Below are positions 21,331 to 49,842 of a stretch of DNA of 64,000 nt, piece after piece (position 1 is the first letter of the stretch; each line of letters starts with the position of its first letter). This stretch comes from Cyanophora paradoxa CCMP329. Taxonomy: Eukaryota; Plantae; Glaucophyta. The stretch lies in assembly GCA_004431415.1 (NCBI GenBank), contig QPMI01000520.1, positions 62,001 to 126,000 of the forward strand, written 5' to 3'. The notes below the pieces were generated by a model. The model had not been told where the DNA came from. It saw only the letters and a list, made by a program, of their open reading frames with translations, and did not search any database. Position numbers and translations under genes: made by a program.

Positions 21331-22421
21331 ACACATAGACAATGCCCGCGTTTTATCCCTCGGCTAAGTTTAATTATAATTTGTTTATATTTTACCTATA
21401 TTTCTTGCATATTTTACGATAATTTATGTGTATTTTATCCTTTATTCTTGTCTTTTATGTGCGTATCTCATATAAATTACAAATGTTACCCTTACTGAAA
21501 ATTAATTTACTCGTATCTCTGATGTATTTTACCTCTATCTCTCGTAATCACTTGTATTTGAGGTGGATTTTAAACTTAGATAAATTATATCACGCCTCCT
21601 GATAAAACGCGGGCATTGTCTATGTGTGATATTACGCATTATCGTGTATAATGATATGGAAATAATATTTGTATGCATTATATGTAAAATATGTATTAAT
21701 GATCGTAATAAATATGTATAAAATATGTGTGAAATTCTAACGGAATTCCGTCGAAAAATAATAAAATGTTCTTTTGGATATAATGCGATGATGATATGGA
21801 GCGGATATGGTGCCGCATTAGAACGTAAACAACTACAATGTGCTGTATGGAGCGCGGGACGTGTAATATAATAATGATAACATAGTATTCTTTATGATAA
21901 TTGATATATCTTATGTTATTATAATGGTATTTTCTATATGTAACAGGTGTAACAGGTTTATCCCAAATTGGGCTACTAGGAGGGGGTCATGGATTCCCGA
22001 GTTTGGGGAGAACCTGTTACACCCGTTACAACGTAAACAACTACAATGTGCTGCATGGAACGCGGGATGTATAATACAACAAGGTTAATATATGATACTT
22101 GATGATACTTTATGATTATTTATGACTGATATTATGTTATTTTAATGGGTTCTTACTGATAATGGTTAGTGTAACAGGTGTAACGGGTTCATCCCAAACT
22201 TTCCCCTAGGAGGAGGTCGGCGGCTTGGAACTTTGGGGAGAACCTGTTACACCTGTTACACTACACTGAATCACAATTAATTAACCTGTTACATCTTCTT
22301 TTACCACTTATTACCGTGTCGGAAATCTCGATACTTTATGTCTCTCCGTATGCGGAGATCCACCAAAGATACCTATTATCCTCTCTTCTATTAACGATGA
22401 TATATTACATGTCTTTCGCTC
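21331..22421 (+). repeat. Left terminal inverted repeat (1091 bp)
   Basis: Reverse complement of 48752-49842; one mismatch noticed (21938 vs 49235). Confidence 0.96.
21939..22263. repeat. Two ~92-97-bp imperfect palindromes with TGTAAC/GTTACA iterons (21939-22030, 22167-22263)
   Basis: Arms TGTAACAGGTGTAAC(A/G)GGTT / AACCTGTTACACC(C/T)GTTACA; each is preceded by a ~47-bp direct repeat (21822, 22030). Confidence 0.9.
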
Positions 22422-22423
22422 GT

Positions 22424-23196
22424 GCAAAAAATGAAAGTCCCGTGAGCTACACAAATTGATTTAAGGAAGTTGCGATATAGAGGTGTAAGAAAGAAAATTA
22501 TTTTCTGTGTCTAATATAAAAGCAAACATGGCTTATCTGTTCAATGGTCGAATTATCTTCTCTGTTCGTGTTGGTGATCTTCCTTTTTCCATCGGTGAAA
22601 TGCTGGAAATTATAAATGCTATCCATCACAATGGAAGATTAATAGGAAATTCACCCACTTATTCTGATATGCGGGGTGTCGGTTATTTCATGGATAAACC
22701 TCATCAAATAGTCGTTAGACATGTCGATGATCGGTTTTACATTGCGAAAGCCATCGAGCCTATGGGAAATATTAAATTCCTTGTTAGACAACTCCGTTAT
22801 GAGGAAACAGAGGATGCTTATGTAGAAATTCTCGATTTCTGGCAACATGTCCGATGCACTCAATATAAGGTATCTGATGTCATGGATGTAATTGTAAGAG
22901 ATTACGGTAATCAGATGCAACCACGTTATTATTTTAAAGTAAATCGTGATCTCTCGGTTTATCATCGCAAGTTTGAAGGGCATAACTTAAAGTTAACTAC
23001 TCGTGCATCGGTTCGTAAATTCTTAAAAGCCAATGGTGCCGCATGGAGTCGTGGACATCGCATGTGGTATATTGAAGAAAAGGACAAAGTGGGTATTGTG
23101 GGTGATATATTCAGTTTGATCGATCGCAATTAATCAGGCAAAAATTGAAAGCCCCGTGGGCAACACAAAATGATTTAAGGAAGTTGCGATATATAG
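22424..23196 (+). promoter_or_regulatory. Duplicated ~59-bp putative early promoter (22424-22482 and 23138-23196) with AAAATTGA-type motif
   Basis: Identical 23-bp core TGATTTAAGGAAGTTGCGATATA at 22457 and 23171, each about 70 bp upstream of an ATG; exact AAAATTGA at 23141. Confidence 0.65.
22528..23133 (+). CDS. Viral hypothetical protein with C-terminal DUF5710-like motif
   Basis: Long ORF in AT-rich DNA; KFLKANGAAWSRGHRMWYI resembles the K..GA.W....K.WY motif. Confidence 0.6.
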   Translation: MAYLFNGRIIFSVRVGDLPFSIGEMLEIINAIHHNGRLIGNSPTYSDMRGVGYFMDKPHQIVVRHVDDRFYIAKAIEPMGNIKFLVRQLRYEETEDAYVEILDFWQHVRCTQYKVSDVMDVIVRDYGNQMQPRYYFKVNRDLSVYHRKFEGHNLKLTTRASVRKFLKANGAAWSRGHRMWYIEEKDKVGIVGDIFSLIDRN

Positions 23197-23238
23197 GGGT
23201 AATAAAGAAAGAGAAAAATTTTTCCGTGACGTATTACA

Positions 23239-23517
23239 ATGACGCGCGCTGAAATGTTTAAGGAGATCTCCGATATCATGGAAGCCGCCGAATACTTCTA
23301 TAAAGAAAACGACACCCTTTACCCTTCTCTGTCTCAAATTGTAGCGATCGGTTTCTTAGCTGATAGACCCGACCGACTGTATGCAAAGAGTGATGAAAAC
23401 CACTTTTTCCACTATCAAAAGCAAACTTTAAAAAGAGGAAAGGTGGAATACAACGTTAAAGCACTGTTTAACTTTGGCGGTGAGTTCATCCCTCTTATTG
23501 AATTCAAAAACCATTAA
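23239..23517 (+). CDS. Viral hypothetical protein (92 aa)
   Basis: ATG ORF behind the second copy of the duplicated promoter. Confidence 0.6.
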   Translation: MTRAEMFKEISDIMEAAEYFYKENDTLYPSLSQIVAIGFLADRPDRLYAKSDENHFFHYQKQTLKRGKVEYNVKALFNFGGEFIPLIEFKNH

Positions 23518-24425
23518 TCAATACCTAACGCTAAAAACTCCAACTCAAACGAATTATCGATACCGTTCATATCAACAAGATCACCGTAATAATCGCGAAA
23601 CTCTACCGTTAACTCATTAATCACTAAATTACGATCGTTTATTTTTATGTATTCGCCATGCTCTCCGCTATGGTAGATATACTTCCCGATGTCCTGACTT
23701 AATTGTAAACGCAAAATTGCGCCTTGGTTCTGTGGTTGCGATCGTGGGACTATATTATGGTTTGCCGCAAATGTGGCAATTTCTTTAATGTGCATATAAA
23801 TGTATTGTTCAGCGTTCATATCTGCCATCTTGTCACTTAATGCTCTAAACTGTAACTCTGTTACATCCATATTATCTGCCTCGAAGGTAATGCCCCACTG
23901 TGGGTGATCCGGCGTAATTGGTATTCCTGCATAAACAAGATGGTTTTCCGGTGCATACATCGACCTTTGTAACAAGTGAGTTTTAACAGTGCTGCCTAAC
24001 CATTCTATTGAACTTAAACCAAATAGTTTAGCTATCCTGGCGTTAGAGGCAATCACCTCAAAGAGATAATTACTATAAAACTCCAATTTGTAGGTGGTCG
24101 GGTTGTAGTATATTTTGAACTTATAACCATCACCGAGATTGAAATTCAAACCATAATTATATGGGTGAGTAACACTAAAATGCCCTTGATTAATGTAGCC
24201 ACTCGGTAGTGGGTTAATCTGTTTTACAACGTCACCATTAGCGGTGTCATATCTTACAAGTAAAAAATCGGTTCCTATTGAATTATATATACTGTTCGGA
24301 ATCTCAGCATACAAAACGCGACATTGCCGCGGTTTGGTTATTGGTCTTGTGAGTGCAACCCTATAAGAGTTTTCTTTTTGTCCTTGTTGTCGATCTCTAC
24401 TATCGACATTGATAAGACGAATCAT
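23514..24425 (-). CDS. Minor capsid (penton)-like single jelly-roll protein 1
   Basis: N-terminal INVDSRDR...YRVAL..PI.....VLYAEIPNSIYN and C-terminal LTVEFRDYYGDLVDMNGIDNSFELEF, typical of PLV/NCLDV pentons. Confidence 0.75.
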   Translation of the reverse strand: MIRLINVDSRDRQQGQKENSYRVALTRPITKPRQCRVLYAEIPNSIYNSIGTDFLLVRYDTANGDVVKQINPLPSGYINQGHFSVTHPYNYGLNFNLGDGYKFKIYYNPTTYKLEFYSNYLFEVIASNARIAKLFGLSSIEWLGSTVKTHLLQRSMYAPENHLVYAGIPITPDHPQWGITFEADNMDVTELQFRALSDKMADMNAEQYIYMHIKEIATFAANHNIVPRSQPQNQGAILRLQLSQDIGKYIYHSGEHGEYIKINDRNLVINELTVEFRDYYGDLVDMNGIDNSFELEFLALGID

Positions 24426-24454
24426 TTTATTATATGAATATAGATTAAAGAAAC

Positions 24455-25465
24455 ATGCCGGTCGAATATGTCGAAGTTTCATCATTTAGACAGGCTCCTA
24501 ATCTCGATGCGCCGACGTCTAAGTTTATCGCTGAATTACCAAAGATGTATGAGAATGTAAGAGCTGTCCGACTTGTTTCGGCGGAATTCTATAACTCCAT
24601 TCCTCTTATCAGCGGTGAAAGTGTCCCCGGAGATGTCACAGTTAATGATTCTTTCACCATTAATTTTAGTATCGCTAATTCAGCGATCAACTCTACCAAT
24701 GCTCCCGCTCCCGGTTTTGATGTTTGGCGCTCGATTCGTCCCGGTCAAGGTGGCGGAAGCTTAGTAATTAATACGCATCAGGAATTAGTAAACCGTATTA
24801 ATACTCGGTTTGCTGGTTTAACACCTGATCCTCAAATAAGGTGTAAATGGGATACCGTAGATAAACGCGTAATATTCTATGCTCCACATGAATTTTACAT
24901 AGCATTCACAACTGCTAAGGATCCTTCTAGTTCGATGGCTGAAAAATCAAACCGACACGGTCGTATGCTTGGTCTCGATGCCGGAAGAGCCGGTAACCGA
25001 TTTATCAAATCTAACATTTACTCAACTGAATATGATCCTATCTTTACAGGTGCTAATGTTCATGGTATCATCTCTACATTCCCTACTGAGAGTTGCAAAG
25101 ATAATGTATTATTCGTAAGAGTAAAAGAACTGGGTGACCTCGTTCAATGTGCCGATGGTCTCCTATCTGGATACTTCCATAAACTCGTGGTGCAAGATAA
25201 AGACTTTGCGGAACACGTTGTTTATAACTCAACAGAAGCAAACCCATTATATAAGTATTACGGGAAACCATTCGCAATCTCTCAAATGTCCGTAGAAATT
25301 GTGAATGCTCAAAACGAATTAATCGATTTCGAAGGGCAACCTGTCCATTTAACTTTCGAGATCCGATATGGTGAAGAACCCGCCGGTGATCCTATTTATG
25401 AGTATTTCAAAATGAGAATGAGAGAAACCCACCCAAATTATCCGGTGATTTGCAATTTTGGATAA
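24455..25465 (+). CDS. Minor capsid (penton)-like single jelly-roll protein 2
   Basis: VEVSSFR...FIAELPKMYENVRAVRLVSAEFYNS and C-terminal MSVEIVNAQNELIDFEGQPVHLTFEI; lies directly upstream of the MCP. Confidence 0.75.
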   Translation: MPVEYVEVSSFRQAPNLDAPTSKFIAELPKMYENVRAVRLVSAEFYNSIPLISGESVPGDVTVNDSFTINFSIANSAINSTNAPAPGFDVWRSIRPGQGGGSLVINTHQELVNRINTRFAGLTPDPQIRCKWDTVDKRVIFYAPHEFYIAFTTAKDPSSSMAEKSNRHGRMLGLDAGRAGNRFIKSNIYSTEYDPIFTGANVHGIISTFPTESCKDNVLFVRVKELGDLVQCADGLLSGYFHKLVVQDKDFAEHVVYNSTEANPLYKYYGKPFAISQMSVEIVNAQNELIDFEGQPVHLTFEIRYGEEPAGDPIYEYFKMRMRETHPNYPVICNFG

Positions 25466-25516: not shown

Positions 25517-26917
25517 ATGGACGTCACAACAACCCTCCAACGTCTTTCCCTCAAAGAGGCGCTAACCACCCCCGAAGAGGCGAAGGCGTTCTTCCTCGAT
25601 AACTCGCTTATGCTTGGTCTGGAATCGAAGACGAAACCCGTTCTCGTTACTGTTAGCCCATCGACAACCTTCCCTAACAACGCTGCGCAACGCGTAAGTT
25701 TCAAACTTCCACGTTACAACTTTATCGGTAAGCTGGAACTCGCTTTCGATCTTAGCGAAATAGTGGGTTTCATCGGTGATACCGATTTGGTTCGTAATGG
25801 TTATGTCCGCCCCGTCGGCGCTCTCGTAGAGCGTCTCGAAATCTCGTATGGCTCTTACCTTTTCACTGTGCCTTCTGATTTCCTTGCTCATTTCCCGCTG
25901 GTTTACTATTCGGAGGATCAGCTAGCGAAAAAGAAACGTTCGGCTGGTTTCCTGCACGGCATCCCACAACACGGAACTAACCGACTTGGTGGATCATTCT
26001 TTGTGGAAATCCCGGTGCCGTGGTTAAATAGTTACCTACCCCTTGGCGCGCTCTCAGGGGAAATGGTAGTTACCGCATGGTTCCGTGACCCCGCTAAGGG
26101 TGGATTCATTGAGACTTCTTATGGTGGTCGCGCTCTTCCGGTTGTAGGTGGAACCGCTGCCGATCAAACCGCTAATGACGGTCTCGGAAACGCTGCAAAT
26201 GTAACCCTTGCTAATGTCGGTCAAAACATCACAACTGGAACCATTACCGGTCTGTCCATTCCATCATCTGCACCTGTGGATACTATTATGATCACCAACC
26301 CACGCCTTTACATGCATGCCGTCAATGTTTCCGATGAGCTGTTTGCTACGGTCATTGAAAAGGTTAAGACTACTGGTATTGCGATTCCTGCTATCGACAT
26401 CGGCTACGTCGATGCTTTCGATGTTGCCGCCAACGGCAACAACCAACCCAACCGTATTAACATTAGCCAAATGTCGGGGCTTGCTTTCGCTCTTCTATTC
26501 TCGGTTCGTGACTACCTTAAAACCGGTCAGGATAACAGCGGCTCCCACAGTGTCCTTAAAACATATGCGGACTCGAAGGATATCACATACACGGTGGAGA
26601 TTAACGGACAGCGTCTTTATTCCACGGAGCCTATCCCACTCCTCAAAGGTGCGGAACTCATCGCCGATGCATTCAAGTGTTCTAACATGGACAAGGAAGC
26701 TAACCGCTATGTCCTGTCCGGTCTTCCGTTCTGTCTGGACGGAGAGAAGGCGATTCGTAACATCGCCCAAAGTGGTTATGTCGATCTAACTAACTCCTCA
26801 TCAAGTTTCCTAACCCTCTACGTCCCACAAAACATGCGCCTTACTGTTAACGTGCGCGCTCTCATGCACACGATGCTCATAGCGGACCGCGACGGTCTCC
26901 GGCGAGTCAATCTCTAA
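25517..26917 (+). CDS. Double jelly-roll major capsid protein
   Basis: 466 aa, beta-rich; VSFKLPR...IGKLELAFDL, LVERLEISYG and FFVEIPVPW..YLPLGALS.EMVVTAWFR patterns; located between penton and packaging ATPase. Confidence 0.8.
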   Translation: MDVTTTLQRLSLKEALTTPEEAKAFFLDNSLMLGLESKTKPVLVTVSPSTTFPNNAAQRVSFKLPRYNFIGKLELAFDLSEIVGFIGDTDLVRNGYVRPVGALVERLEISYGSYLFTVPSDFLAHFPLVYYSEDQLAKKKRSAGFLHGIPQHGTNRLGGSFFVEIPVPWLNSYLPLGALSGEMVVTAWFRDPAKGGFIETSYGGRALPVVGGTAADQTANDGLGNAANVTLANVGQNITTGTITGLSIPSSAPVDTIMITNPRLYMHAVNVSDELFATVIEKVKTTGIAIPAIDIGYVDAFDVAANGNNQPNRINISQMSGLAFALLFSVRDYLKTGQDNSGSHSVLKTYADSKDITYTVEINGQRLYSTEPIPLLKGAELIADAFKCSNMDKEANRYVLSGLPFCLDGEKAIRNIAQSGYVDLTNSSSSFLTLYVPQNMRLTVNVRALMHTMLIADRDGLRRVNL

Positions 26918-27001: not shown

Positions 27002-27784
27002 ATGGCGGATTTAGAAGAGTTTAATGCCGCTGAAATGATTGAACCACCGTTTCGATTATTGATACTCGGAAAATCCGGCTGCGGAAAAAGTGAGGCGGTA
27101 AAATATTATTTGAAACAACTACACGATGCGAAAAAGATAGATACAACGCTAATTATTTCTGCTACTAGTTTCACGCATTACTGGGATTCGGCGGCTACCG
27201 TTCAATTGGGCGCCTGGGATTCACAATACATCCATAAGATTATTAAAGATCGTGAAGAGAAGAGGGAAAGAGGAGAAAAACTTAACCATATGCTGATTAT
27301 TTTAGAAGACATGATAGAAAACGACCAATTAGACTTAACACGAGACAAAACAGTGGGGATGCTGTTTATTAGGTCAAGACATGTGAACTGCTCCCTGATT
27401 TGCATATCGCAAAAACTGCGCAAGGTTGCAAGTGTGATTCGCTGTAATTGCGATATCGTTATTATGGTTTGTGCAAGTAATCAGAAAGAATTAGAAGCTT
27501 TCGCCGAAGAGTATTCTACGTTTCCCCGTAAAGAAGACTTCTATAAGATGTTCGAAGAATACGTGCATTCTTACCAATTCATCGTTTATACATCATTCAA
27601 ATATAACGTAGGATATTATGTAGATAAAGCCGAATTGGTCGGTGAATTTGACTTTCCGCGGTTCCATCGCAAACCTAAAAAGAAAGAAGACGAATTAAAA
27701 CCACCTGAGCAAGAGGAAGCGCCAAAAGAGATTAAAAGCGCTGTTCATTCGAATAAATTGATGCGATATAAGAGAGGACTTTAA
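27002..27784 (+). CDS. A32-like (FtsK/HerA) genome packaging ATPase
   Basis: Walker A GKSGCGKS, Walker B LIILEDM, SRHVNCSLICISQK and IRCN motifs. Confidence 0.93.
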   Translation: MADLEEFNAAEMIEPPFRLLILGKSGCGKSEAVKYYLKQLHDAKKIDTTLIISATSFTHYWDSAATVQLGAWDSQYIHKIIKDREEKRERGEKLNHMLIILEDMIENDQLDLTRDKTVGMLFIRSRHVNCSLICISQKLRKVASVIRCNCDIVIMVCASNQKELEAFAEEYSTFPRKEDFYKMFEEYVHSYQFIVYTSFKYNVGYYVDKAELVGEFDFPRFHRKPKKKEDELKPPEQEEAPKEIKSAVHSNKLMRYKRGL

Positions 27785-27812: not shown

Positions 27813-28544
27813 ATGCCGCCAAAAAGTAAAGTAGGTGTCCCCGCTGGGGCTATTTCATATTCCGGTGGTGAAAGTTACGGATCTCTCAATACTACACCTA
27901 TGAAATTCGACGGAGTCAATCAAGTGAAACCATCGCAACCCGAAGAAGATCCTTTAAATGCTGCTTATGAAGAATCGCCGGCGGACAAAGCACCGCAAGC
28001 ATCAACAAGTGAAACACTCAATGTATCACCGGATGCATCGAAGATGAAGGCGGTCGGTGAGGGTGCGCGTCGTATTATCGGTGCCGCCGATGATCGCGGT
28101 CTTGGTCTACAAGATCTTGCACTTGCCCGCAAAGGTCAAGGTGTTTCGAAAGAATCGGACAAGGTTATACAATCGATGGCGGGAGAAGTAACTTATAAAG
28201 TTGCTCCAACTCAAAACGTCCACCGAATGCCGAAGGCTGAATGGGACACAATGACCGCTAAACTACGCGATCTCGAAGCTAAGTCAAGCGCTCTTGAACA
28301 GTATGTAATGGAAAAGAAAGAACGCGCTAAAATGAAGGAGATGTTACGTAAAGAGGTTTTCCGAATGGGAATTACGGGACTTCCTGATACTCAATTTATT
28401 CGGAAGAAAGAGACACAAATAGATGAGCAAGCGGTGGATGAAATGAATACCAAAAAGAAGGGAACCATAGAACCTGGCGCTACCAAAGCGGAAGTAGAGA
28501 AAGCCGTAGCACCAACAGTTTACAAGCGGAGAGTTTGGCTTTAA
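27813..28544 (+). CDS. Viral hypothetical protein (charged, coiled-coil; possible core protein)
   Basis: 243-aa ATG ORF co-oriented with the morphogenesis genes. Confidence 0.65.
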   Translation: MPPKSKVGVPAGAISYSGGESYGSLNTTPMKFDGVNQVKPSQPEEDPLNAAYEESPADKAPQASTSETLNVSPDASKMKAVGEGARRIIGAADDRGLGLQDLALARKGQGVSKESDKVIQSMAGEVTYKVAPTQNVHRMPKAEWDTMTAKLRDLEAKSSALEQYVMEKKERAKMKEMLRKEVFRMGITGLPDTQFIRKKETQIDEQAVDEMNTKKKGTIEPGATKAEVEKAVAPTVYKRRVWL

Positions 28545-28571
28545 ATATATCTGATTAATAAAGGATTCTCG

Positions 28572-28820
28572 ATGGACTTTCTCCAAAAGATCATAGAGAT
28601 GTTTAACCTGCACATTGTAAGCAATTGTCACAGCGGGTGCTGTGACACAACCGTAGAACTTGGTTTTTCAGATACCGAAGATAATGTAACGGAAGGTAGA
28701 GAGTCCCGGAGACATTCGGTAGACTCCACACATTCAGAACCCGCTACAAATGGTCGCCGGTTTTCTGTCGATCAAAGCGATGATTTACGAAGGCAAGCGT
28801 TTGATCATCGCGGTAATTAA
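28572..28820 (+). CDS. Small viral protein with amphipathic N-terminus and Cys cluster
   Basis: MDFLQKIIEMFNLHIVSNCHSGCCD; tightly packed ATG ORF. Confidence 0.55.
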   Translation: MDFLQKIIEMFNLHIVSNCHSGCCDTTVELGFSDTEDNVTEGRESRRHSVDSTHSEPATNGRRFSVDQSDDLRRQAFDHRGN

Positions 28821-29022
28821 AATATTTGTAATAAGTATCGGAAAATGCTCGAAGAAGTCTATAATATTATTTTAGCGAAACGTCAGATTTACGCCGTTGC
28901 ATCTGCGATAGAAAAACGTAGACAAGAGCTTGTCCGGTCGCCAAAAAATGACAACCCTAAAAGTATTTAAAGAAACAGCGATATTACAAACTGATAAAAT
29001 ATTTTCTGTGCTGAAAGTAAGA

Positions 29023-29298
29023 ATGGCTGCTATCGCCGATGATGTTAGTGTAATTGAATTCGAATTTGAAAGTGACAGCGATGAAATTGTTAACTCACCA
29101 CCAAAGGTTAAACTTAATCCTAAGAGTGCGGATGGGTTAAATTATCGGATCCGTGAAGTGCTGAAAATGCGAAAGAGGTATGAGGAAGACCCCGAATACC
29201 GCGAATTCAAAAAAAAGCAAGCTTTGGAGAACTATTACCGTCGGAAAGAATTGGAAGGTATCCATAGTGCAAAGCGTGGACGTCCTCGCAAATACTGA
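29023..29298 (+). CDS. Small basic DNA-binding protein with C-terminal AT-hook
   Basis: YEEDPEYREFKKKQALENYYRRK helix and KRGRPRK. Confidence 0.65.
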   Translation: MAAIADDVSVIEFEFESDSDEIVNSPPKVKLNPKSADGLNYRIREVLKMRKRYEEDPEYREFKKKQALENYYRRKELEGIHSAKRGRPRKY

Positions 29299-37205: not shown

Positions 37206-37224
37206 TTAATATAATAAAACATAA

Positions 37225-38390: not shown

Positions 38391-39428
38391 TTAAGTGATG
38401 CTTAGAAGTTCAGCAGTAAACATTGTTCGACTTGAATAACCACCTGTGGTTCCTGTAACAAGTGTTACATATTCTCCCGCGGCAAGATTGAGAATAACAT
38501 TGATATAAAGAGGCTTAGCAGCTATTGTAGTCGAAGTTCCAAAAGTTGCGATAGAAAGACCACCAGGGTTAGTGTCATTCACCTGTAAAGTAAGACTTGC
38601 AGAAGCTGAACTTGTGGAGGCAGAGTTTACAGTAAATCTGTAATGACCAGCAACAGGAGCTGTATAGCGTCCATTGCCTTCATTAAAGGCATCTCTGTTA
38701 TCAATAAAAACGGTTGTCCAATTGATTAGAACAGCAGCACTTGTAGCAGTGTGTGAATAACCCAGTTGCGCACAGAATCGAGGTTGAAAATCATACTTTA
38801 AATAACAACTTAAATAACAACCTGTATTTAGGGTGAAACTATTGGCTTCCAGGGTTGCCATAACATCACTATTGCGTTTCAGAACCAGATTCGTGCTTGA
38901 TCCTGTATCTATTTCAGGTGTCACTATTTTGGTAGTTGCTGTCACAATAGATTGTTGCGCCCCAGGAACATACACACCACCATTGGCTGTTACCAAATCA
39001 TTAAATGTAGTTGCTCCTGTTACTGTGATTTGTTCAGTTGTGAGATTCCCATTTATTCTTGCTCCATCTCCAATGTATGCCCCTCCACTTTTTACCACAA
39101 GAGCAGAGTTATTACTTGTGTTATCAAAAGTAACTATTTTAGGTGTGGTGAACCCTCCCACATCATCATAAATAGCTGAATCTGGGACAATTGAACCCGA
39201 TTGAACTTGGTTCTTATTTGAAACTATTAAACCTGTGGTTCTTACCTTTCCATTATTGCGATCACATCGTATTTCTTTGCATCTTATCATAGAGTTTTGA
39301 GAAAATGAATCGGCTCCTGTTGTTTCAGTGCAAATAAACCCAGGGGTTGCATCTGTGACTGTGTGGTTAAGTTGATGTATTTTTGGGGCGGCATAACAGA
39401 AAACAGGAACGGCTATTTGTGTAGACAT
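38391..39428 (-). CDS. Fibre paralogue 2 with C1q/TNF-like head
   Basis: Shared N-domain plus PRFCA...FNEGNGRYTAPVAGHYRF...LNLAAGEYV...FTAELL. Confidence 0.75.
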   Translation of the reverse strand: MSTQIAVPVFCYAAPKIHQLNHTVTDATPGFICTETTGADSFSQNSMIRCKEIRCDRNNGKVRTTGLIVSNKNQVQSGSIVPDSAIYDDVGGFTTPKIVTFDNTSNNSALVVKSGGAYIGDGARINGNLTTEQITVTGATTFNDLVTANGGVYVPGAQQSIVTATTKIVTPEIDTGSSTNLVLKRNSDVMATLEANSFTLNTGCYLSCYLKYDFQPRFCAQLGYSHTATSAAVLINWTTVFIDNRDAFNEGNGRYTAPVAGHYRFTVNSASTSSASASLTLQVNDTNPGGLSIATFGTSTTIAAKPLYINVILNLAAGEYVTLVTGTTGGYSSRTMFTAELLSIT

Positions 39429-40524: not shown

Positions 40525-40543
40525 CTTTATAATTACGAAATAG

Positions 40544-43500
40544 TTAAATTGCGACAGCAATGTAATGGATTGTAACAGTTTTGGCTGTATTGTCCATTGC
40601 ATATGGATCAGTGAAAAGTTCACATGTGAAAAGTCACTGTAAACATTTAACAGGTTCACAGTAAAAATGACGGGAGTTACTTGATAATTTGGAGCTTGTC
40701 CTTCATGCCTTACTGTTGCTGTCACAACAGGAGGAGAAGCAAAGGCACTACTGAAATAGATGGTTAGATTGAACACATATAAATTATTGTAGTTCATAAC
40801 AGGAGTAGTGTAAACATACTTTCCTGCTTTTATTTTCCCATTGAAATATGAATTGAGTTGACTGGTAAGATCTGCTTCTGTAATGCATCTACTAATAGTG
40901 GAGCTATCTGTGGGGTTCATAGCATAAAAGTTTCTTGCATAAGCATTTCCTCTGACCAATAGAGTTTGATCATAATAATTCTGCGAATTGTGGAAAAACC
41001 ATGTTTCATCAAACATAGGTCCGGCTGGTTCTACTATCTGACCTGATCCTACATACATTGTGTTGTTGGCTCTTATAGTGGTTGCTGTGAATGGATCGAG
41101 AGTTGGTTTATTGGTCAGGTCATTGTAGTTGCCCGAAAAAATCGCTGGTTTGTTATAAATATCTGTATTCCAATCATGAGTGTGTGCAAAATCTGTAATC
41201 TCTGCCTTTGTGTGATTGTGGGCAAAATCTGTTATCTCACTCTTTACATGAGTGTGTGCGAAATCTGTGATTTCAGATTTTACATGAGAGTGAGCGAAAT
41301 TAGTAATATCTGCTCGGGTGTGATAGTGTGCAAAATCTGTAATTTGGGACTTGGTGTGAGTGTGTGCGAAATCTGTGATTTCTGCCTTTGTGTGGGTGTG
41401 TGATCTATTATTAAGATCGAGGAAGCTACCCGAAAATGCAACAGGGTGTAGATTTGCTGCGGTGGGTTTATTAATTAGATCATTATAATCTCCTGTGAAT
41501 GAAATGGTTTTTAGCTCTCCCCTTCCTACATAATCAGATGGTAGATCAATCTTTATAGGCATAATCGCTGGATCATCAGGAATCACATATTCACCTCCTG
41601 GATGAACCACAGGAAAGGTTTGATTACATTCAGTGTGGACAAAAAAGTTACATGCTGTAACTGTTCCATCAATAATCCCACCTGTTAGAGGAAGGTAATC
41701 ACCTGTTACACCAATATTTATACCTGCAATGATTGTATTCAGTTCGGTTTCATCTATGTAGTTTTGGGCTTGTAGGTAATCTTCTGTAACAATTCTTGAA
41801 ATTGTTTCATTGTGGATGTTTTTCGCTGAGGCTCTCTGATTGATTTCTAAGACCCCCTCACCGACTCCACCATTATAATTTGTTTTTATCCATGATATCT
41901 CGCATCTCTTGTAATCATCTCGATTTCCCAAAAGTGCATCTGGTAACAGTCTCTCTCTGCTGAATATTAATTTCGGTCTTGATGAATCCAAATCACTCAC
42001 ATCAGTAACATTAATCTGTATTGCTGCATCTTTGTCATCATAGTTAACTGGATCAGATGGTAGAGATACTAAACCTCCTGTCATCGGGATGTCATCAGCG
42101 TAGTAGCTTGTTAGATAGATACCTGGTTTGGTGTCTAATGCTCCAAAGTTCCCGCCTGCTGCAATCATCTGCATTCTTGTGGGGGGTCTAATGTATAATT
42201 CGCCTTCCATTGTGGTGCCTGCATCTATTCCTTTGCGATTCACATAGTAGTCATTTAATTGTAACCTTTCAGGTATGGTATTGCTCTGATAGAGACTTAC
42301 ACCATCTGTAAAATCTGTTAATATATTTCCTGCTGATGCAAACTTAGGCTGGTCATCTATTTCGCTCCACATGTGCCTATGGGCAAAATCCTCGATCTCA
42401 TCTTTGGTATGGGTGTGGTTTGCTATCCAATCTAAAACAACATTAGAAGTAGGATGATGTGGAAGGTTTGCTTCTATATTCACAGTCAAATAATCGACGA
42501 CTAAGTTGCTGGAATAAAGATTACTTGCCCAAAGGTTACTGGTGTAAATGTTACTTGCTGAAATGTTGCTGGTGTAAATGTTACTCGCCCATAGGTTACT
42601 TGTGTAAATGTTACTTGCTGAAATGTTACTGGTGTAAATGTTACTTGTGACTGTAAGGTTTGTATCATTTTTTATCACGAATAATGAAAGAATATTAGTA
42701 AGTTCTCCTTCGTCAATGTATCCCTGTTCTTCTAAATAATCCTCTGTTACCACTCTCGATATATCTTCATTGTGTATGTTTTTGGCGCTTGCTCTTTGAT
42801 TGATTTCTAATAAACCTTCACCAACTCCGCCATTATAATTTGTTTTTATCCATGCTACCTCACATCTTCTATAATCATCTCGATCTCCTATAAAAGTATT
42901 AGGTAAAAGACGCTGCCGAGTAAATACTAATTTTGGTCTCGATTGGTCAAAATCGCTTACATCTGTAACATTAATTTGTATTGCTGCGTCTTTGTTATCA
43001 TAACTATTTGGATCTAATGGAAGCGACGGTATAGGAGGTAATACATCTGTCATCGGGATATCCTCAGGATAGAAGCTTGTTAAATAAATTCCGGGTTTCG
43101 TCTCATACAAACCAAAATTACCATTAATTGGTAAAATCCCTTCTCTTCTGGGTGGTCTAATGTATAATTCGGCTTCCATTCCTGTTCCTGCTTCTATTCC
43201 CATGCGATTAAGGTAGTGGTCATTTAATTGTAATCTTTCTTCTATGTTGATATTTCTATAAAGACTTACACCATATTGGAAATCTGTTAATACATTTTCT
43301 GCGGATGCGAAAGTAGGTTGCTCATCGATTTCGTCCCAATTATGCCTGTGGTCTGCTGGTGGAAATTCAGTAGGTATGTTATCTAAATCTTCCCAATCGT
43401 GCCTATGCTCTGTCGGTGGGAATCTTTCCGGTTTGTTTAGAATGTCATCCCATTCGTGTTCGTGGGGATCTGGTGGGAATGTGTCGGGTTTGTTAATAAT

Positions 43501-44706
43501 ATCCCTCCAATCTACGGTAAAATCGAAAAATCCCGGCTGTAATCCATCTGGTAATAACTCTTCATCTGGTATATGTGGCTGTTCGTAATCGATGTTTGGT
43601 GGATCTAATCCATGTGGTAAAAGTTGTTCGTCGTAAGGTTCGTAGCGATCATATAACATATGGTTAGGATCAAATCCATCCGGTAATTCTTCCACGTCTT
43701 CACATTCTTTATGTTCGAGAGGTATAACATTAATATCTGGTGCTAAGAGTTCCTCAGCGGGCGGTTTGTAGTCTTTAAAAACTGGTTTATTATGGACTTT
43801 TTCCCAACTAACAAAATGATGCCCAAACGCTACCGTCTCATCTGCTGTGTATTCTCTTCCGGGTTGTTTCTTTGGTGTAAGATCTGGTGGATCCCATGGA
43901 AGTGGAAACGGAACCGGAGTAGGTCCGTAATGCTCTATGATCTCTCTTATGGTCTTTTCACTAACGAGCCGCTCCCCATTTGCATAAACATTACTACCAT
44001 GAATATTTCGCCACTGTCGGGTTCTAATACCAAGGTCTTTGGTGTTTGTTTTCAAAGGTAAAAGGTGGCGATCCATTTCGACAAGATCGGGATGTAAATG
44101 TATAGCTACTGGTTGACTGGGACTACTGTCGACTGTGATCGAATCCTTTTCTTTGGAAGTATCCGGTGGAAGAGTGAAACCAAACAGTGCGTTAGTGTTT
44201 GAATTGTTGACAATGTCCTTTGGGTAAACATTGTTGGTGTGGCGAATCTGATTCTCTTCACCATGTGGGGCTACCTGTAATATCTGAGGGATTTGTGTAA
44301 TCGCATTTGATCCTTCATTATAGATTCTCAAACCGCTACGATGAACTCCCTTCTCATCCTGGACATTAAAAACCAAACGTCCGCTATCGTAACGTGTGGG
44401 AATATCGGGATGCGTTCCACTTGCTTTAAGTTTCCGTGGTCTCCTTCTTGTTGCCTTGATCTCCGCAACCGTGTTTTTTTTTACATTCCCCAAACTGAAA
44501 GCTATACTTACATCTTCTTTCTCTGGGTCTGTTTGATTCACCGTTAAAGCATGAATTCTGGGATGCGTCTTACTGGGTTTATCGGCGCTCTGATCAATTG
44601 ACGCCGACCCTTTAATGGTGATATTATCAAAGTTAACATGCTTTGGGTTCCCTTTACCACCACTACCTGTTATGGTTTGTAAATTTGCTGGATAATTGAA
44701 ACTCAT
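40544..44706 (-). CDS. Large fibre protein with phage tail-fibre repeats
   Basis: HxHxWxDIxNKPxxFPP repeats, about six HTHTKAEITDFA repeats (41176-41400), SNIYTSN repeats, TGDYNDLINKP motifs, a ~215-aa internal duplication; natural end ...TVTIHYIAVAI* lies in the -1 frame. Confidence 0.8.
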
Positions 44707-44755: not shown

Positions 44756-46291
44756 ATGCCTCTAAGGGTTGTTTTAGCTTTGTCTGGCGGCGGCGCACGT
44801 GGTATTATCATAACAAGGTTGTTAAAAGAAATAGAAACAAGAACGGGTAAACGCGTTATTGATTTGGTCGACCTTGTAAGTGGAACGTCCACAGGCGGTA
44901 TTATTGCTATTGGTCTCAATGTGAAAAATCCCGAATTTCCCGATGAACCAAAATTAACAGCTACCGACCTTCATAATACTTACCTATATCATCTTCCTCT
45001 CATCTTTGCGAATCCACGGAATATCATAGAGAATGCACTTTTCAATACTAAATATGATGTATCACCATTAGAAACCGCTATTTTCTCTGTGACTGGGGAA
45101 GCTCTCATAAAAGATTCACTAAAAGATGTGGTTATTACGACGTTCGATACTGTAAGCATGAAACCAATTCTTATAGCAAACGATAACGATTACAAGACTA
45201 TACCAAGTAAGATTGCGGCACGTTCTACTTCTGCCGCTCCAACATATTTTGCTCCTGTCGATTACGAGGGGATGTGTCTAATTGATGGTGCGATATCAGG
45301 TAACAATAACCCAAGTGTTTGTGGTTACAGTCACGCAAAAAAGATATATGATAACGACGACGATATTATAGTTATTAGCATATCATGCGGTGAGGTAAAT
45401 GAAACAGACGCACCGAATGTGGGTTATTCTTACGAAAGTGTGAATACCTGGGGTATTCTTTCATGGATTGCTTCCACCTCAGGGAGTCCATTAATTAATA
45501 TGCTAATGGCTGCAAGTGAATTATCGGCTCTTGAAAAGATGCAAGAGTTTTTACCGTATAATGATGACCAAGGATACGCCCGATACTACCGTATCTCTGT
45601 GCCGCTTCCGAAGGATATCTTAAACTCCCTCGATGATACTTCTAAGATTCCGGACATGATCGCGGCGACTGAAACGTATATACAAGCAAACGACGCCATG
45701 ATAGATCGACTCTGTCAGTTACTTGTAACAAATTATGAGATTAAGAACCCTGTCAGATCCTATGTATCATCCACTCTCAATAACATACCTCCTATCGATG
45801 CTAATTGGTATCTTCTGTCAGATAATGCGTTTACCGCTTCTTCTGCAAAATTCGGAAAAGAGGCATTTAAAGCCCGCCCATCATTAACTGGATGGGAAGC
45901 GAATGCATCCGCAATTAACGGAGTATGGGAAACGCCAACTGAATATTTGCAAATAGCCTTCCCATATACATTTGAGGTCGCTTCTATAATTGCATATGGT
46001 TCAGGTATAACAACTGCGTTTATTAAGACTTTCAATGTTGCGACATCGCAAGATGATATAACATGGTCATTTATCAAATATGAGGGTGTAAATAGAATGT
46101 TTGTATGTGAGAATATAAATAATGCTAATAACTCTGGGGATGTATCATATGCTATGGGGTTCCCACTTTCGGTAAACGATGTATTTTACATAGGTTATCC
46201 ATTGAGAACACGATATATACGTATTTATCCTTTGGTATATATAAATGCCCCGACTATGAGAGTCGATGTAACGGGCGCATTTATACGATAG
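44756..46291 (+). CDS. Patatin-like phospholipase fused to an F5/8 type C (discoidin) domain
   Basis: GGGARG, GTSTG nucleophile elbow, TSAAPTYF, DGA; C-terminal FTASS...EYLQI...TRYIRIYP....APTMRVDV.G. Confidence 0.9.
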   Translation: MPLRVVLALSGGGARGIIITRLLKEIETRTGKRVIDLVDLVSGTSTGGIIAIGLNVKNPEFPDEPKLTATDLHNTYLYHLPLIFANPRNIIENALFNTKYDVSPLETAIFSVTGEALIKDSLKDVVITTFDTVSMKPILIANDNDYKTIPSKIAARSTSAAPTYFAPVDYEGMCLIDGAISGNNNPSVCGYSHAKKIYDNDDDIIVISISCGEVNETDAPNVGYSYESVNTWGILSWIASTSGSPLINMLMAASELSALEKMQEFLPYNDDQGYARYYRISVPLPKDILNSLDDTSKIPDMIAATETYIQANDAMIDRLCQLLVTNYEIKNPVRSYVSSTLNNIPPIDANWYLLSDNAFTASSAKFGKEAFKARPSLTGWEANASAINGVWETPTEYLQIAFPYTFEVASIIAYGSGITTAFIKTFNVATSQDDITWSFIKYEGVNRMFVCENINNANNSGDVSYAMGFPLSVNDVFYIGYPLRTRYIRIYPLVYINAPTMRVDVTGAFIR

Positions 46292-46700: not shown

Positions 46701-48416
46701 CTACTTCCGGGAACTGGATCGTAGATTTACGCGGGTTTGAGGTGCTGTATATGTCTCTTTTGAGGTCTGGAAGTCTGTATACCATCTCTGGCTGTTGACC
46801 TCTGATAGCTTCTGGGTTCCTGCTATGACCAACTTCTTAATTTCACGCTCCGCCTTCCCTTTCTTCTTAGTTCTGGCTTGTGTTAGCGGTTCTTCTGGGA
46901 CATCATCCGCTTTTTCGATGCCTTCCTTTCGTATCGCCGAATCTATCCGGGCTTCTTCTTTGGCTTGCTCTAATGCATCACCTGTGGGCGCCTCATGATA
47001 CTCTACACCTTTGATAGGTAACAGTTCGTGGAAAGCAAACCTCCCATCGACCATTTCACCATTCGGATTTCGTAATCGAAACTTAAAACCCTCTCTACCC
47101 TCGACAACCGCGTCCTTGGTGGAGTGGTAGAGCGCCGCACTCTCCATTCTTGAGCCTCTGGGTTCGAATCCAGGCCGGCCGAAGCAATCCCGCTTCGAAT
47201 CCCAGTGTGGTCGTTGGGGGGTTTGATGGTAACCCAACGCTGGGCGGACCCCATAGCCGCACCCAGTGGACCCGAAAGGCCGAAGGTGGGGGCGGTCCTG
47301 TGCGTTCCCATAAGAACACGCGCATAGGGAGAAGGCTGTGCGAGGAAGGGTAATCGCCCCAGTACGGCCCGGCCCGAGAACCCCTAAGGGGAGCAAATTT
47401 TTTTTTTCTCTACCCTCGACAGTATAAACGATCCGCGACCAATTGACACCCTGTTTAGCGAATGGGTTCTTTTCTATTCTCACCCGCACAAACATACCCT
47501 TTTGAATACCATCTAAGTAAGCCATCGACTTCTTAAACTTCTCGTCTTCTAAACCTATGATCTCTCTATAATGCTCATCTGTGGTTTCTGCGGGTTTTCT
47601 CTTAGTCGCTGAATGGACAGTATGGTTATAATTATACTCAATGTCACCCAATACATCAAAGAATCGCGCCGTGTTATTTGCTATGCAATAGTTCGTAATA
47701 AGCCGCTTGATCTGCTTGTTAAACGCTTCTATTCTACCCTGACTCCGATGATCTGCGACATCGCTAATCTGATGGTCGATGAACTTCTTAGCAAGGTAAT
47801 TAGTAAACATAGTATTAGTAAATTCGCTCCCGCTATCACTTTGGACACGTGCAATTGGTCGCGGAACTCTCTTTTGTAATTGTTCGAATGCGGCAAGAGT
47901 CGTAATAGCGCTCTTGTCTCTCATCGGAATAATATAACCTGTTCTAAGCGTTGATTCCATAGCCGACATAAACGTATCGTATCCGTCATTTTGCTTCTTA
48001 TAAGCTGGGAAAAACAGAAGATCGATAACATAGGTATCGAGAGGTTGCCTAATTGGTATCATCGGGTCTCTCTTTCTTGAAAGGGTAGGCGCGTTAATCT
48101 GAACAACTTCCTGTTTATCATACCATTCTTTCATCTTCTTATAGTCTTCATCTGGTAGTTCTTTCCTCATAGCTCCGAAACCCTTGTAACCGGTGCGCGG
48201 ATCGTAAAACTTCTTAGCAATCTTAGATTCTTTCGTTACAGTCTCAGTAGGCAATGCCTCCGGAATCAGTTCTTTAACTATCTCAGACTTCTTTAAAATT
48301 CGTGTGGTTTTCTGTTCTATCGGAATGGTTATAGGTAGCATGTTACCCTGATCTTCTTTCATGCTCTTCTTTACGATCTTAGGAATGGGTCTTAAACCTA
48401 TCTGTGCGGAAGGCAT
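46701..48416 (-). CDS. int: Retroviral-like (rve/DDE) integrase with an in-frame 105-codon SINE insertion
   Basis: YVIDL, VQSDSGSEF and GRIEAFNK (intact D,D,E), YNHTVHSATKRKP; duplicated VEGRE peptide marks the insertion. Confidence 0.93.
   Translation of the reverse strand: MPSAQIGLRPIPKIVKKSMKEDQGNMLPITIPIEQKTTRILKKSEIVKELIPEALPTETVTKESKIAKKFYDPRTGYKGFGAMRKELPDEDYKKMKEWYDKQEVVQINAPTLSRKRDPMIPIRQPLDTYVIDLLFFPAYKKQNDGYDTFMSAMESTLRTGYIIPMRDKSAITTLAAFEQLQKRVPRPIARVQSDSGSEFTNTMFTNYLAKKFIDHQISDVADHRSQGRIEAFNKQIKRLITNYCIANNTARFFDVLGDIEYNYNHTVHSATKRKPAETTDEHYREIIGLEDEKFKKSMAYLDGIQKGMFVRVRIEKNPFAKQGVNWSRIVYTVEGREKKNLLPLGVLGPGRTGAITLPRTAFSLCACSYGNAQDRPHLRPFGSTGCGYGVRPALGYHQTPQRPHWDSKRDCFGRPGFEPRGSRMESAALYHSTKDAVVEGREGFKFRLRNPNGEMVDGRFAFHELLPIKGVEYHEAPTGDALEQAKEEARIDSAIRKEGIEKADDVPEEPLTQARTKKKGKAEREIKKLVIAGTQKLSEVNSQRWYTDFQTSKETYTAPQTRVNLRSSSRK
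47107..47406 (+). mobile_element. tRNA-derived SINE (300 bp) with T-tail and 15-bp TSD
   Basis: A box TGGTGGAGTGG, B box GGTTCGAATCC, GC-rich structured body, terminal T run; TSD TCTCTACCCTCGACA at 47092-47106 and 47407-47421. Confidence 0.88.
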
Positions 48417-48460
48417 CTTTACCTTATTTCCGTAATTTAATTTTTCTATATAATTCATAA

Positions 48461-48862
48461 ATGAACCATCGGGGCTTTCATGTGATGTTAGATTACAAGT
48501 TTTCGAATCCGCTAATTACGGGAGTGGACAACTTAGAGACCACAACAAAATGGTTAATGCACTTTTTACAAGATATTATACAAGAGCAAGGTATACGAGT
48601 AGTTCACAAGCATTACGAGATTTTCGATGGTGGTCTTTCACCTCCTGGTTTTACATTAGTTCTCCTATTAGATGAGAGTCATTGCACCGCTCATTGTTAC
48701 TCAGACGAGGGCATGTTAGCAATCGATATATTCAGTTGCGGAAGGGATGCGGAGCGAAAGACATGTAATATATCATCGTTAATAGAAGAGAGGATAATAG
48801 GTATCTTTGGTGGATCTCCGCATACGGAGAGACATAAAGTATCGAGATTTCCGACACGGTAA
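48461..48862 (+). CDS. speD: Prokaryote-type pyruvoyl-dependent S-adenosylmethionine decarboxylase family proenzyme
   Basis: G.HVMLD, PPGFTLVLLLDESH (self-cleavage site), HCY.DEG.LAIDIFSCG; 133 aa. Confidence 0.88.
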   Translation: MNHRGFHVMLDYKFSNPLITGVDNLETTTKWLMHFLQDIIQEQGIRVVHKHYEIFDGGLSPPGFTLVLLLDESHCTAHCYSDEGMLAIDIFSCGRDAERKTCNISSLIEERIIGIFGGSPHTERHKVSRFPTR

Positions 48863-49842
48863 TAAGTGGTAAAAGAAGATGTAACAGGTTAATTAATTGT
48901 GATTCAGTGTAGTGTAACAGGTGTAACAGGTTCTCCCCAAAGTTCCAAGCCGCCGACCTCCTCCTAGGGGAAAGTTTGGGATGAACCCGTTACACCTGTT
49001 ACACTAACCATTATCAGTAAGAACCCATTAAAATAACATAATATCAGTCATAAATAATCATAAAGTATCATCAAGTATCATATATTAACCTTGTTGTATT
49101 ATACATCCCGCGTTCCATGCAGCACATTGTAGTTGTTTACGTTGTAACGGGTGTAACAGGTTCTCCCCAAACTCGGGAATCCATGACCCCCTCCTAGTAG
49201 CCCAATTTGGGATAAACCTGTTACACCTGTTACACATAGAAAATACCATTATAATAACATAAGATATATCAATTATCATAAAGAATACTATGTTATCATT
49301 ATTATATTACACGTCCCGCGCTCCATACAGCACATTGTAGTTGTTTACGTTCTAATGCGGCACCATATCCGCTCCATATCATCATCGCATTATATCCAAA
49401 AGAACATTTTATTATTTTTCGACGGAATTCCGTTAGAATTTCACACATATTTTATACATATTTATTACGATCATTAATACATATTTTACATATAATGCAT
49501 ACAAATATTATTTCCATATCATTATACACGATAATGCGTAATATCACACATAGACAATGCCCGCGTTTTATCAGGAGGCGTGATATAATTTATCTAAGTT
49601 TAAAATCCACCTCAAATACAAGTGATTACGAGAGATAGAGGTAAAATACATCAGAGATACGAGTAAATTAATTTTCAGTAAGGGTAACATTTGTAATTTA
49701 TATGAGATACGCACATAAAAGACAAGAATAAAGGATAAAATACACATAAATTATCGTAAAATATGCAAGAAATATAGGTAAAATATAAACAAATTATAAT
49801 TAAACTTAGCCGAGGGATAAAACGCGGGCATTGTCTATGTGT
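48752..49842 (-). repeat. Right terminal inverted repeat (1091 bp)
   Basis: Reverse complement of 21331-22421; overlaps the last 111 bp of speD. Confidence 0.96.

What the first reader, a model, noticed from the sequence alone, without database searches (positions are those of the whole stretch)
21331..49842. Intact-looking endogenous Polinton-like virus with an unusual gene combination in a probable glaucophyte-like alga
Seen: near-identical 1091-bp TIRs, a 6-bp TSD (typical of rve-integrase Polintons), AC...GT rather than AG...CT termini, and a full morphogenesis module. It combines pPolB, PrimPol-SF3 helicase, rve integrase, two pentons, five fibre-like genes, patatin-discoidin and SpeD, with no recognisable adenain/Ulp1 maturation protease. 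Canonical Mavericks and virophages have that protease, and many PLVs use tyrosine recombinases. Inference: a recently integrated member of a distinct PLV lineage, possibly an inducible anti-giant-virus element.
Basis: partly seen in the sequence, partly recalled or inferred. Interest (0 to 1): 0.85.

Follow-up and report, generated by a model that had tools for sequence, protein, structure and literature searches.

The report
Catalogued algal provirus lacking polymerase proofreading
This is a real, full-length 28.5-kb virus genome integrated in an alga (likely Cyanophora paradoxa) that belongs to a family already listed in published surveys; the one fresh feature is a DNA polymerase that lacks its proofreading motifs and likely works together with a separate primase-helicase.

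Summary
The element is real: 28,512 bp, 1,091-bp TIRs (one mismatch), a 6-bp TSD (AGCAAT), 40% GC in 70% GC flanks, and many related copies in DNA runs of one organism. It is not a new lineage. Its capsid protein is about 98% identical (by eye) to a Cyanophora paradoxa MCP in Bellas 2023 Table S2. Bulzu 2025 Table S6 already gives the same gene set for 156 glaucophyte elements: 0 proteases, 0 tyrosine recombinases, 85 rve, 89 lipases, 66 AdoMetDC. AC…GT ends are also known in Mavericks. 'Intact-looking' is overstated for this copy: a tRNA-like SINE sits in the integrase gene, and one-base differences split pPolB and fuse two fibre genes. Contigs from the runs lack the SINE and both frameshifts. 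Two features I did not find described: the pPolB has lost all three exonuclease motifs plus about 94 residues (106 of 120 relatives keep all three), and a palindromic unit lies beside the AEP-S3H gene and twice in each TIR. This is likely a further independent case of exonuclease loss paired with a helicase. An anti-giant-virus role is untested.

The parts
21325..21330 (+). Left target-site duplication AGCAAT
21331..22421 (+). Left TIR, 1,091 bp, starts ACACATAG; holds two copies of a ~100-bp palindromic unit (about 21938-22030 and 22165-22265)
22528..23133 (+). Orphan ORF, 201 aa; no family hit, no adenain-type motif
23239..23517 (+). Orphan ORF, 92 aa; its upstream region repeats about 25 bp of the upstream region of the 201-aa ORF
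23514..24485 (-). Likely minor capsid (penton) 1; probable start 24425; one relative at 53% (P0124)
   Evidence: penton identity inferred from recalled motifs and position
24455..25465 (+). Likely minor capsid (penton) 2, head-to-head with penton 1
   Evidence: E 0.012 to penton 1; no useful PDB hit; inferred
25517..26917 (+). Major capsid protein, 466 aa, double jelly-roll type; about 98% identical by eye to a C. paradoxa MCP in Bellas 2023 Table S2
27002..27784 (+). A32-like packaging ATPase, Walker A/B present
27813..29298 (+). Three orphan ORFs (243, 82, 116 aa); the 243-aa one has no cysteine
29488..31827 (+). AEP (Prim-Pol)-D5_N-superfamily 3 helicase fusion, 779 aa
31898..32067 (.). Internal copy of the TIR palindromic unit directly downstream of AEP-S3H (81-83% to the TIR copy; hairpin z -9.2); likely replication origin
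   Evidence: origin role inferred
32454..35736 (+). pPolB (about 1,093 aa): N-terminal region, vOTU-type Cys/His domain, exonuclease domain lacking Exo I/II/III and ~94 aa, EndoVII-like zinc finger, intact palm motifs A/B/C; split at the A-run 34142 in this assembly
36067..36339 (-). 90-aa zinc-finger protein like HNH-associated repeats
36360..39428 (-). Fibre-like paralogues of 281, 293 and 345 aa (C1q in the last) sharing a ~120-aa N-terminal domain, plus an 88-aa ORF
39451..44706 (-). 1,751-aa ORF that joins a long tail-fibre-like gene and a 357-aa C1q fibre gene (start 40524); contigs of two runs carry one more base at 40631
44756..46291 (+). Patatin phospholipase-F5/8 discoidin fusion; GGGxRG, GxSxG and DGA motifs present
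46701..48458 (-). rve/DDE integrase; catalytic core upstream of the SINE insertion; 480 aa without it
47093..47420 (+). tRNA-like SINE (47106-47407; A/B-box-like motifs, T-tail) with 13-bp TSD, in frame (315 bp) in the integrase gene; skipped in a contig of run X1
   Evidence: A/B boxes recalled; no ARAGORN or Rfam hit
48461..48862 (+). SpeD-like pyruvoyl AdoMet decarboxylase, 133 aa; ESH and SCG motifs present; its end runs into the right TIR
48752..49842 (+). Right TIR
49843..49848 (+). Right target-site duplication AGCAAT
51781..52765 (+). Exact 985-bp duplicate of 49038-50022 (805 bp of right TIR plus 180 bp of flank), separated from it by a 1,758-bp repeated, spliced element

Best explanation
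This is one copy of a multi-copy endogenous polinton-like virus family already catalogued in Cyanophora paradoxa, integrated with a 6-bp target duplication, whose polymerase lacks the proofreading motifs and likely relies on the element's own primase-helicase. Shown: TIRs, TSD, gene set, near-identity of the capsid protein to a published C. paradoxa entry, many related copies, loss of Exo I/II/III. Inferred cycle: the rve integrase joins the linear genome's ends to host DNA; the provirus is likely kept silent by CpG methylation; on activation the vOTU domain would release the terminal protein, pPolB would prime at the AC ends, and AEP-S3H would load at the palindromic units next to its gene and in both TIRs; the A32 ATPase would fill a double jelly-roll capsid that needs no maturation protease, with fibres for attachment and the patatin lipase for membrane entry. 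This copy carries a SINE in its integrase tail and is probably less fit than its sisters.
For: Anatomy. Family identity: MCP differs from Bellas Table S2 gene_64235 (C. paradoxa) by about 5 substitutions and 1 indel over the 400 residues shown (by eye); best database hit P0001 is a C. paradoxa protein at 58-60%; 366 MCP hits in that genome. Gene set: 156 glaucophyte elements with 0 proteases, 0 tyrosine recombinases, 85 rve, 89 lipases, 66 PF02675, 49 PF03175, 40 D5_N; discoidin-patatin fusions named for glaucophyte PLVs. Copies: 20 of 24 listed runs hold 0.60-0.63 of the words; 915-1,414 contigs of 90-100% likeness laid per DNA run. Exonuclease loss. Exonuclease loss goes with helicase gain in mavirus and Tlr1-type PLVs. 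Palindromes. Methylation of viral genes in C. paradoxa.
Against: No particle, free DNA or transcript of the element was observed. The MCP models are poor (pLDDT 33-35), so the fold match is weak. Penton identity has no tool hit. Which of the two Bellas clusters (16 or 24) holds this MCP was not shown. The junction contigs reach only 29 bases into the TIR, under the tool's 31-base bar for a bridge. Exonuclease loss rests on alignment and motif patterns in two proteins (this one and P0004), not on an assay. No host gene was matched to C. paradoxa directly.
Confidence: 0.72

Rival explanations
1. The family is helper-dependent, like mavirus or Gezel-14T: giant-virus infection reactivates it and it protects the algal population.
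For: C. paradoxa carries endogenous giant-virus regions. Exonuclease-less pPolB plus S3H plus rve is the mavirus replication set. High copy number.
Against: No test of induction. The AAAATTGA motif (recalled as a giant-virus early promoter) occurs only twice in the element, about what base composition gives by my hand estimate. Published counts for C. paradoxa are zero in all virophage MCP clusters. TsV-type PLVs are autonomous lytic viruses.
Confidence: 0.3
2. This copy is a dead provirus: SINE, two frameshifts and a partly duplicated end mark decay, and the family now spreads only in trans or not at all.
For: SINE with TSD in the integrase; frame breaks at 34142 and 40631; 985-bp end duplication; a 1,494-bp deletion in AEP-S3H among other copies; the ratio of element to flank contig depth is alike in runs of 2012, 2019 and 2024 (6.5, 6.7, 7.4; a rough figure, not a copy number).
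Against: TIRs differ at 1 of 1,091 bases; all catalytic motifs tested are present; at 34142 all contig depth in three DNA runs, and at 40631 in two, has the unbroken form, so these may be assembly errors, which Bellas et al. report as common in such elements; the SINE keeps the frame and spares the D-D-E core.
Confidence: 0.3
3. The palindromes are not origins but scars of a mobile AEP-S3H module that entered a pPolB-rve element, which is midway through swapping replicases while pPolB decays.
For: Barth et al. describe dual-replicase genomes with internal repeats bracketing one replicase, including a contig from the C. paradoxa assembly. In glaucophyte elements pPolB (49 of 156) and D5_N (40 of 156) are both patchy.
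Against: Palm motifs and the vOTU Cys/His pair are kept, and P0004 shares the identical exonuclease deletion at only 42-50% identity, which points to a long-maintained protein. The unit is built into both TIRs.
Confidence: 0.25

Closest known systems
Cyanophora paradoxa endogenous PLVs (Bellas et al. 2023, PMC10120064, MCP clusters 16 and 24, both marked 'new'; Bulzu et al. 2025, PMC12220804, Table S6)
   Same: Near-identical MCP; rve, lipase, AdoMetDC, A32 ATPase, pPolB, D5-type primase-helicase; no protease; no tyrosine recombinase; discoidin-patatin fusion.
   Different: Nothing at family level. In the passages and tables I saw, these papers give counts only, with no genome map, TIR anatomy or polymerase analysis of this family.
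Maverick/Polinton (Polintoviricetes) with EndoVII-bearing pPolB
   Same: pPolB 34-40% identical over the palm region to hundreds of such proteins, including ones annotated in snakes and a coral; vOTU domain; rve; 6-bp TSD; (AC)n...(GT)n ends as in Monopterus Mavericks.
   Different: MCP not detectably related; no adenain-type protease; exonuclease motifs lost; extra AEP-S3H, fibres, SpeD.
Mavirus-type virophages (Lavidavirales)
   Same: rve integration with TSD; exonuclease-deficient pPolB with a separately encoded S3H.
   Different: No virophage-type MCP or protease found; here the exonuclease domain remains as a recognisable remnant with a zinc finger and the helicase is fused to an AEP primase; helper dependence untested.
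Aquintoviricetes PLVs (Gezel-14T, TsV-N1, Dino group)
   Same: Protease-less morphogenesis module, phage-like fibres, lipase, variable replicase.
   Different: No MCP similarity detected to any of them; no reference set was at hand for an MCP or ATPase tree.

Membership tests
C. paradoxa endogenous PLV family (Bellas 2023; Bulzu 2025) | MCP of the C. paradoxa clusters | tested here: met
   About 98% identical by eye over 400 residues to Table S2 gene_64235; 58-60% to P0001, also listed there
C. paradoxa endogenous PLV family (Bellas 2023; Bulzu 2025) | rve, lipase, AdoMetDC, A32 ATPase present; protease and tyrosine recombinase absent | tested here: met
   against Table S6
Maverick/Polinton (Polintoviricetes) | pPolB plus rve integrase | tested here: met
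Maverick/Polinton (Polintoviricetes) | Long TIRs and 6-bp TSD | tested here: met
Maverick/Polinton (Polintoviricetes) | Maverick-clade major capsid protein | tested here: not met
   phmmer over 1.84 billion representatives gave 3 hits, two Cyanophora-type MCPs and one repetitive 4,613-aa protein; published counts for C. paradoxa are zero in Maverick clusters
Maverick/Polinton (Polintoviricetes) | Adenain/Ulp1-type maturation protease | tested here: not met
   No hit in Pfam, PHROGs, NCBIfam or motif scan; a remote fold in an orphan ORF is not excluded because none was folded
Maverick/Polinton (Polintoviricetes) | pPolB with TP-vOTU-EXO-PALM organisation | tested here: inconclusive
   vOTU Cys/His pattern and palm motifs present; EXO domain present only as a remnant without catalytic motifs; TP not tested
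Virophages (Virophaviricetes) | Virophage-type MCP | tested here: inconclusive
   Low-confidence model matches several double jelly-roll capsids (Z 7-8 poxvirus scaffold, PBCV-1, PRD1; Sputnik 6.0, mavirus 5.7); published counts are zero in virophage clusters
Virophages (Virophaviricetes) | Cysteine maturation protease | tested here: not met
Virophages (Virophaviricetes) | Dependence on a giant virus | not testable with these tools
   needs infection experiments
Aquintoviricetes | Reduced morphogenetic module without protease | tested here: met
Aquintoviricetes | MCP and ATPase grouping with Gezel-14T/TsV/Dino clades | not tested
   no reference sequences retrieved

The most novel reading that the evidence does not exclude
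The Cyanophora PLVs are a third, independent case of proofreading loss in a polinton-type pPolB, caught with the dead exonuclease domain still in place, and they replicate by a two-enzyme system: protein-primed synthesis from the ends by pPolB, with an AEP-S3H primase-helicase loading at its own palindromic origin, which has been copied twice into each TIR. They may form an unplaced capsid lineage confined to glaucophytes.
Probability: 0.4. Interest if true: 0.55.

Novelty: new member of a known kind. Interest (0 to 1): 0.33.

Why it matters
As a discovery it is modest: the family and its gene set are in published supplements. Its value is as a well-bounded copy in a culturable alga near the root of plants. 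If the polymerase reading holds, it tests the proposed rule that these viruses trade proofreading for a helicase, using an intermediate in which the dead domain is still visible. It also offers defined candidate origins and a host known to carry giant-virus insertions, so autonomy versus helper dependence can be tested.

Tried and rejected
No whole genome is held for this window, so copies and empty sites could not be counted. IMG/VR scans with MCP, ATPase and AEP-S3H, a DNA-pattern scan for the palindrome, and a metagenome scan with the MCP alignment found no loci; these find close relatives only. PDB sequence searches with MCP, its alignment and both pentons gave nothing useful. Both AlphaFold models of the MCP were poor. 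The protein atlas gave no answer, so the orphan ORFs were not searched by structure. No RNA holder was listed, and the two guessed-RNA runs laid had no contig on the part of the element each covered; by the tool's own warning this is no evidence on expression. Rfam gave only sub-threshold miRNA matches to hairpins and nothing for the SINE; ARAGORN found no tRNA. No convincing shared promoter motif beyond AT-rich words. My first Exo II pattern was wrong (0 of 120) and was corrected (118 of 120). The pPolB tree is the quick tree only, on 45 of the 120 listed hits plus this protein (47 chosen, 2 dropped for lack of the anchor motif); the window protein and P0004 form a long-branched pair, so nested versus sister placement is open. 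I first misread Bulzu Table S6 by one column (139 'proteases'); the percentage row shows 156 is the element count and 139 is the ATPase column. A programmed -1 frameshift at 34142 was rejected: the second ORF is in the +1 frame and the contigs lack the extra base. An assembly artefact for the third TIR piece was rejected: contigs branch at 50022/52765 and the shared 180 bp has 1.6-2 times the flank depth. Three look-ups of earlier scan findings returned nothing.
Full report
Observation. The element spans 21331-49842 (28,512 bp). Its TIRs are 1,091 bp with one mismatch, both ends are flanked by AGCAAT, and the termini read ACACATAG...CTATGTGT. GC is 0.399 inside and 0.704 in the gene-rich flanks. 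A 6-bp match at both ends would arise by chance about 1 time in 4,000. The element sits in an island of other repeats between host genes (an MFS transporter and an RRM protein on the left).

Genes. Family scans confirm an A32 ATPase, an AEP-D5_N-S3H fusion, patatin-F5/8, AdoMet decarboxylase, C1q fibres and an rve/DDE integrase. The 466-aa ORF at 25517 has no Pfam or PDB sequence hit. A weak model (pLDDT 35) has double jelly-roll capsids as its top six matches (Z 7.0-8.3, rmsd 4.8-9.7 A, 152-185 aligned), and Bellas et al. give HHpred probabilities of 94% and 98.5% to large-virus MCPs for its two closest relatives. The two pentons are inferred from position and recalled motifs only. Four fibre-like proteins share a ~120-aa N-terminal domain at 35-45% identity. 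No maturation protease was found by three libraries or a six-frame motif scan, and no gap inside the coding region exceeds 409 bp.

This copy is not pristine. A 302-bp insertion with tRNA-like A/B boxes (recalled consensus), a T-tail and a 13-bp duplication adds 105 codons in frame to the integrase, behind its D-D-E core; a contig of run X1 skips exactly these 315 bases at depth 551. pPolB is split at an A-run at 34142; in three of three DNA runs all contig depth at that place lacks the extra base. The 1,751-aa ORF is a fusion: in the two DNA runs that cover 40631 all depth has one more base, and a separate 357-aa C1q gene starts at 40524. The two one-base differences are either assembly errors or private mutations; Bellas et al. 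report such errors as common in these elements. Right of the element, 805 bp of TIR plus 180 bp of flank are duplicated exactly around a 1,758-bp repeated element; contig branch points and depth support this as real.

Copies and junctions. Twenty of 24 listed runs, all under one organism label and from 17 studies, hold 0.60-0.63 of the sampled words. Per DNA run, 915-1,414 contigs at 90-100% likeness were laid on 19500-36500, showing many related copies. A 1,297-bp contig with no differences runs from the left flank 29 bases into the TIR in two runs, and a 209-bp contig does the same on the right in one; 29 is under the tool's 31-base bar, so the junctions are supported but not proven, and no long reads were available.

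Host and prior description. Among 5.8 billion clustered proteins the MCP had one hit among the 7,993 candidates scored, a Cyanophora paradoxa protein at 58%; among 1.84 billion representatives one more MCP at 37%. Bellas et al. 2023 Table S2 lists a C. paradoxa MCP that differs from this one by about five substitutions and one indel over the 400 residues shown (by eye). Table S4 counts 366 MCP hits in that genome, 272 and 94 in clusters 16 and 24, both marked 'new' and outside the named virophage, Gossevirus and Maverick columns; by my column count a 'Dino' sub-label stands over cluster 16, but the count may be off and I did not see which cluster holds this MCP. Bulzu et al. 2025 Table S6 gives, for 156 glaucophyte elements, 0 in all nine protease columns, 0 tyrosine recombinases, 85 rve, 89 lipases, 66 PF02675, 139 PF04665, 49 PF03175, 40 D5_N and 8 Prim-Pol, and its text names discoidin-patatin fusions in glaucophyte PLVs. 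Starrett et al. also mention such contigs in C. paradoxa. Protease-less modules are typical of most PLVs, two pentons occur in other groups, and (AC)3A...T(GT)3 ends are known from Monopterus Mavericks.

What remains fresh. First, the polymerase. Its palm half finds 2,698 long relatives; the best is an unnamed 1,083-aa protein (P0004, 48%), then EndoVII-bearing Maverick-type pPolBs at 34-40%. In the alignment the window protein keeps a vOTU-type Cys...His pair, the EndoVII-like zinc finger and palm motifs A, B and C, but Exo I reads YVKIE for YADxE, Exo II reads DQMDECG for HNLRGYD, and the stretch with KGxxPY and Exo III is gone. By motif patterns, 106 of the 120 listed hits keep all three Exo motifs and only P0004 lacks all three; the span between two flanking anchors is 34 residues in both against a median of 128 in the 110 other hits where it could be measured. 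Contigs over parts of this gene differ from the window by only 1-5 bases, so this is a family trait. Krupovic et al. describe exonuclease loss twice, in mavirus (with a separate S3H) and in Tlr1-type PLVs (fused S1H), and propose that helicase gain compensates. This element fits that pattern with an AEP-S3H. The tree cannot show whether the pair nests within or is sister to the exonuclease-bearing group, so independence of the loss is inferred from the retained remnant. Second, a ~100-bp unit with GTAACAGGTGTAAC arms around a CTAGGAGGxGGTC core occurs twice in each TIR and once right after the AEP-S3H stop codon; it folds far better than shuffles (z -4.9, -7.5, -9.2). Iterated repeats beside primase-helicase genes act as origins in phage satellites (recalled), so an origin role is likely but untested; Barth et al. 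read such internal repeats as marks of mobile replicases. I did not find either feature described for this family; a search for AdoMet decarboxylase with 'polinton' gave no paper, though the domain is counted in Bulzu's table.

Mechanism. Shown: integration signature, gene set, motif states, multi-copy family. From established knowledge: rve integrases leave 6-bp TSDs; vOTU likely frees the terminal protein; viral genes in C. paradoxa are enriched in the methylated, silent fraction and the genome holds giant-virus insertions. Inferred: latency under methylation, end-primed replication helped by AEP-S3H at the palindromes, protease-free assembly, lipase-aided entry, SpeD-like enzyme supplying polyamines or a related amine. 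Autonomous versus helper-dependent replication is open; I put helper dependence at about 0.3.

Papers, as seen. PMC10120064: passages, section 9, supplement rows (Tables S1, S2, S4; file cut when stored). PMC12220804: passages, section 11, supplement rows (S6, S11, S12); its per-element data on Zenodo were not seen and may already hold this copy. 10.64898/2026.10.13.758929: abstract, section 10 (first part), sections 11 and 13, passages. 10.64898/2026.06.19.733378: abstract, sections 6 and 7, passages. 10.1101/2024.03.18.585575: passages, section 10. Supplements of these three preprints are closed and may bear on placement and on the exonuclease claim. PMC8502044, PMC8097293, PMC12721341: passages. 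PMC12344493: abstract, passages, section 9. PMC13215967: abstract and outline; a term search found no mention of Cyanophora.

Verdict. A real, well-bounded, slightly damaged copy of an already catalogued glaucophyte PLV family. Interest 0.33; the polymerase and palindrome anatomy would merit about 0.55 if confirmed.

Noticed in passing
window 50023-51780: 1,758-bp GC-rich repeated element between the two copies of a 985-bp duplication; contigs of a guessed-RNA run show two spliced introns (50053-50109, 50245-50310) and its right end (about 51724-51773) is very highly repeated. No Pfam hit. It may have caused the unusually long duplication.
   Followed up: partly
window 18281-19558: 1.28-kb foldback (nested inverted repeats, 95-100% arms), MITE-like, left of the provirus.
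   Followed up: no
window 21172-21330 with 49849 onward: The provirus interrupts an open frame that continues across the TSD (131 codons into the first right flank, 196 into the duplicate); no Pfam hit on the pieces.
   Followed up: partly
window 29213-30708: Contigs in two runs skip 1,494 bp inside AEP-S3H, pointing to deleted, non-autonomous copies elsewhere.
   Followed up: no
window 39300-43400: Many joints and loose ends in the fibre region across runs: fibre repeats and gene number vary between copies.
   Followed up: no
window 21331-21397 and 21561-21627: The first 67 bp of each TIR have a 72% inverted copy 163 bp inside, so each end could fold back on itself.
   Followed up: no
window 22458-22480 and 23170-23195: The upstream regions of the 201-aa and 92-aa ORFs share GATTTAAGGAAGTTGCGATATA, a possible duplicated early promoter.
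   Followed up: no
window 46408-46565: Short tandem repeats (CCGGGG-containing 23-mers and TA-rich units) between the converging patatin and integrase genes.
   Followed up: no
window 54296-55095: 24/30-bp tandem array inside a long minus-strand ORF of a probable further repeat or host gene.
   Followed up: no
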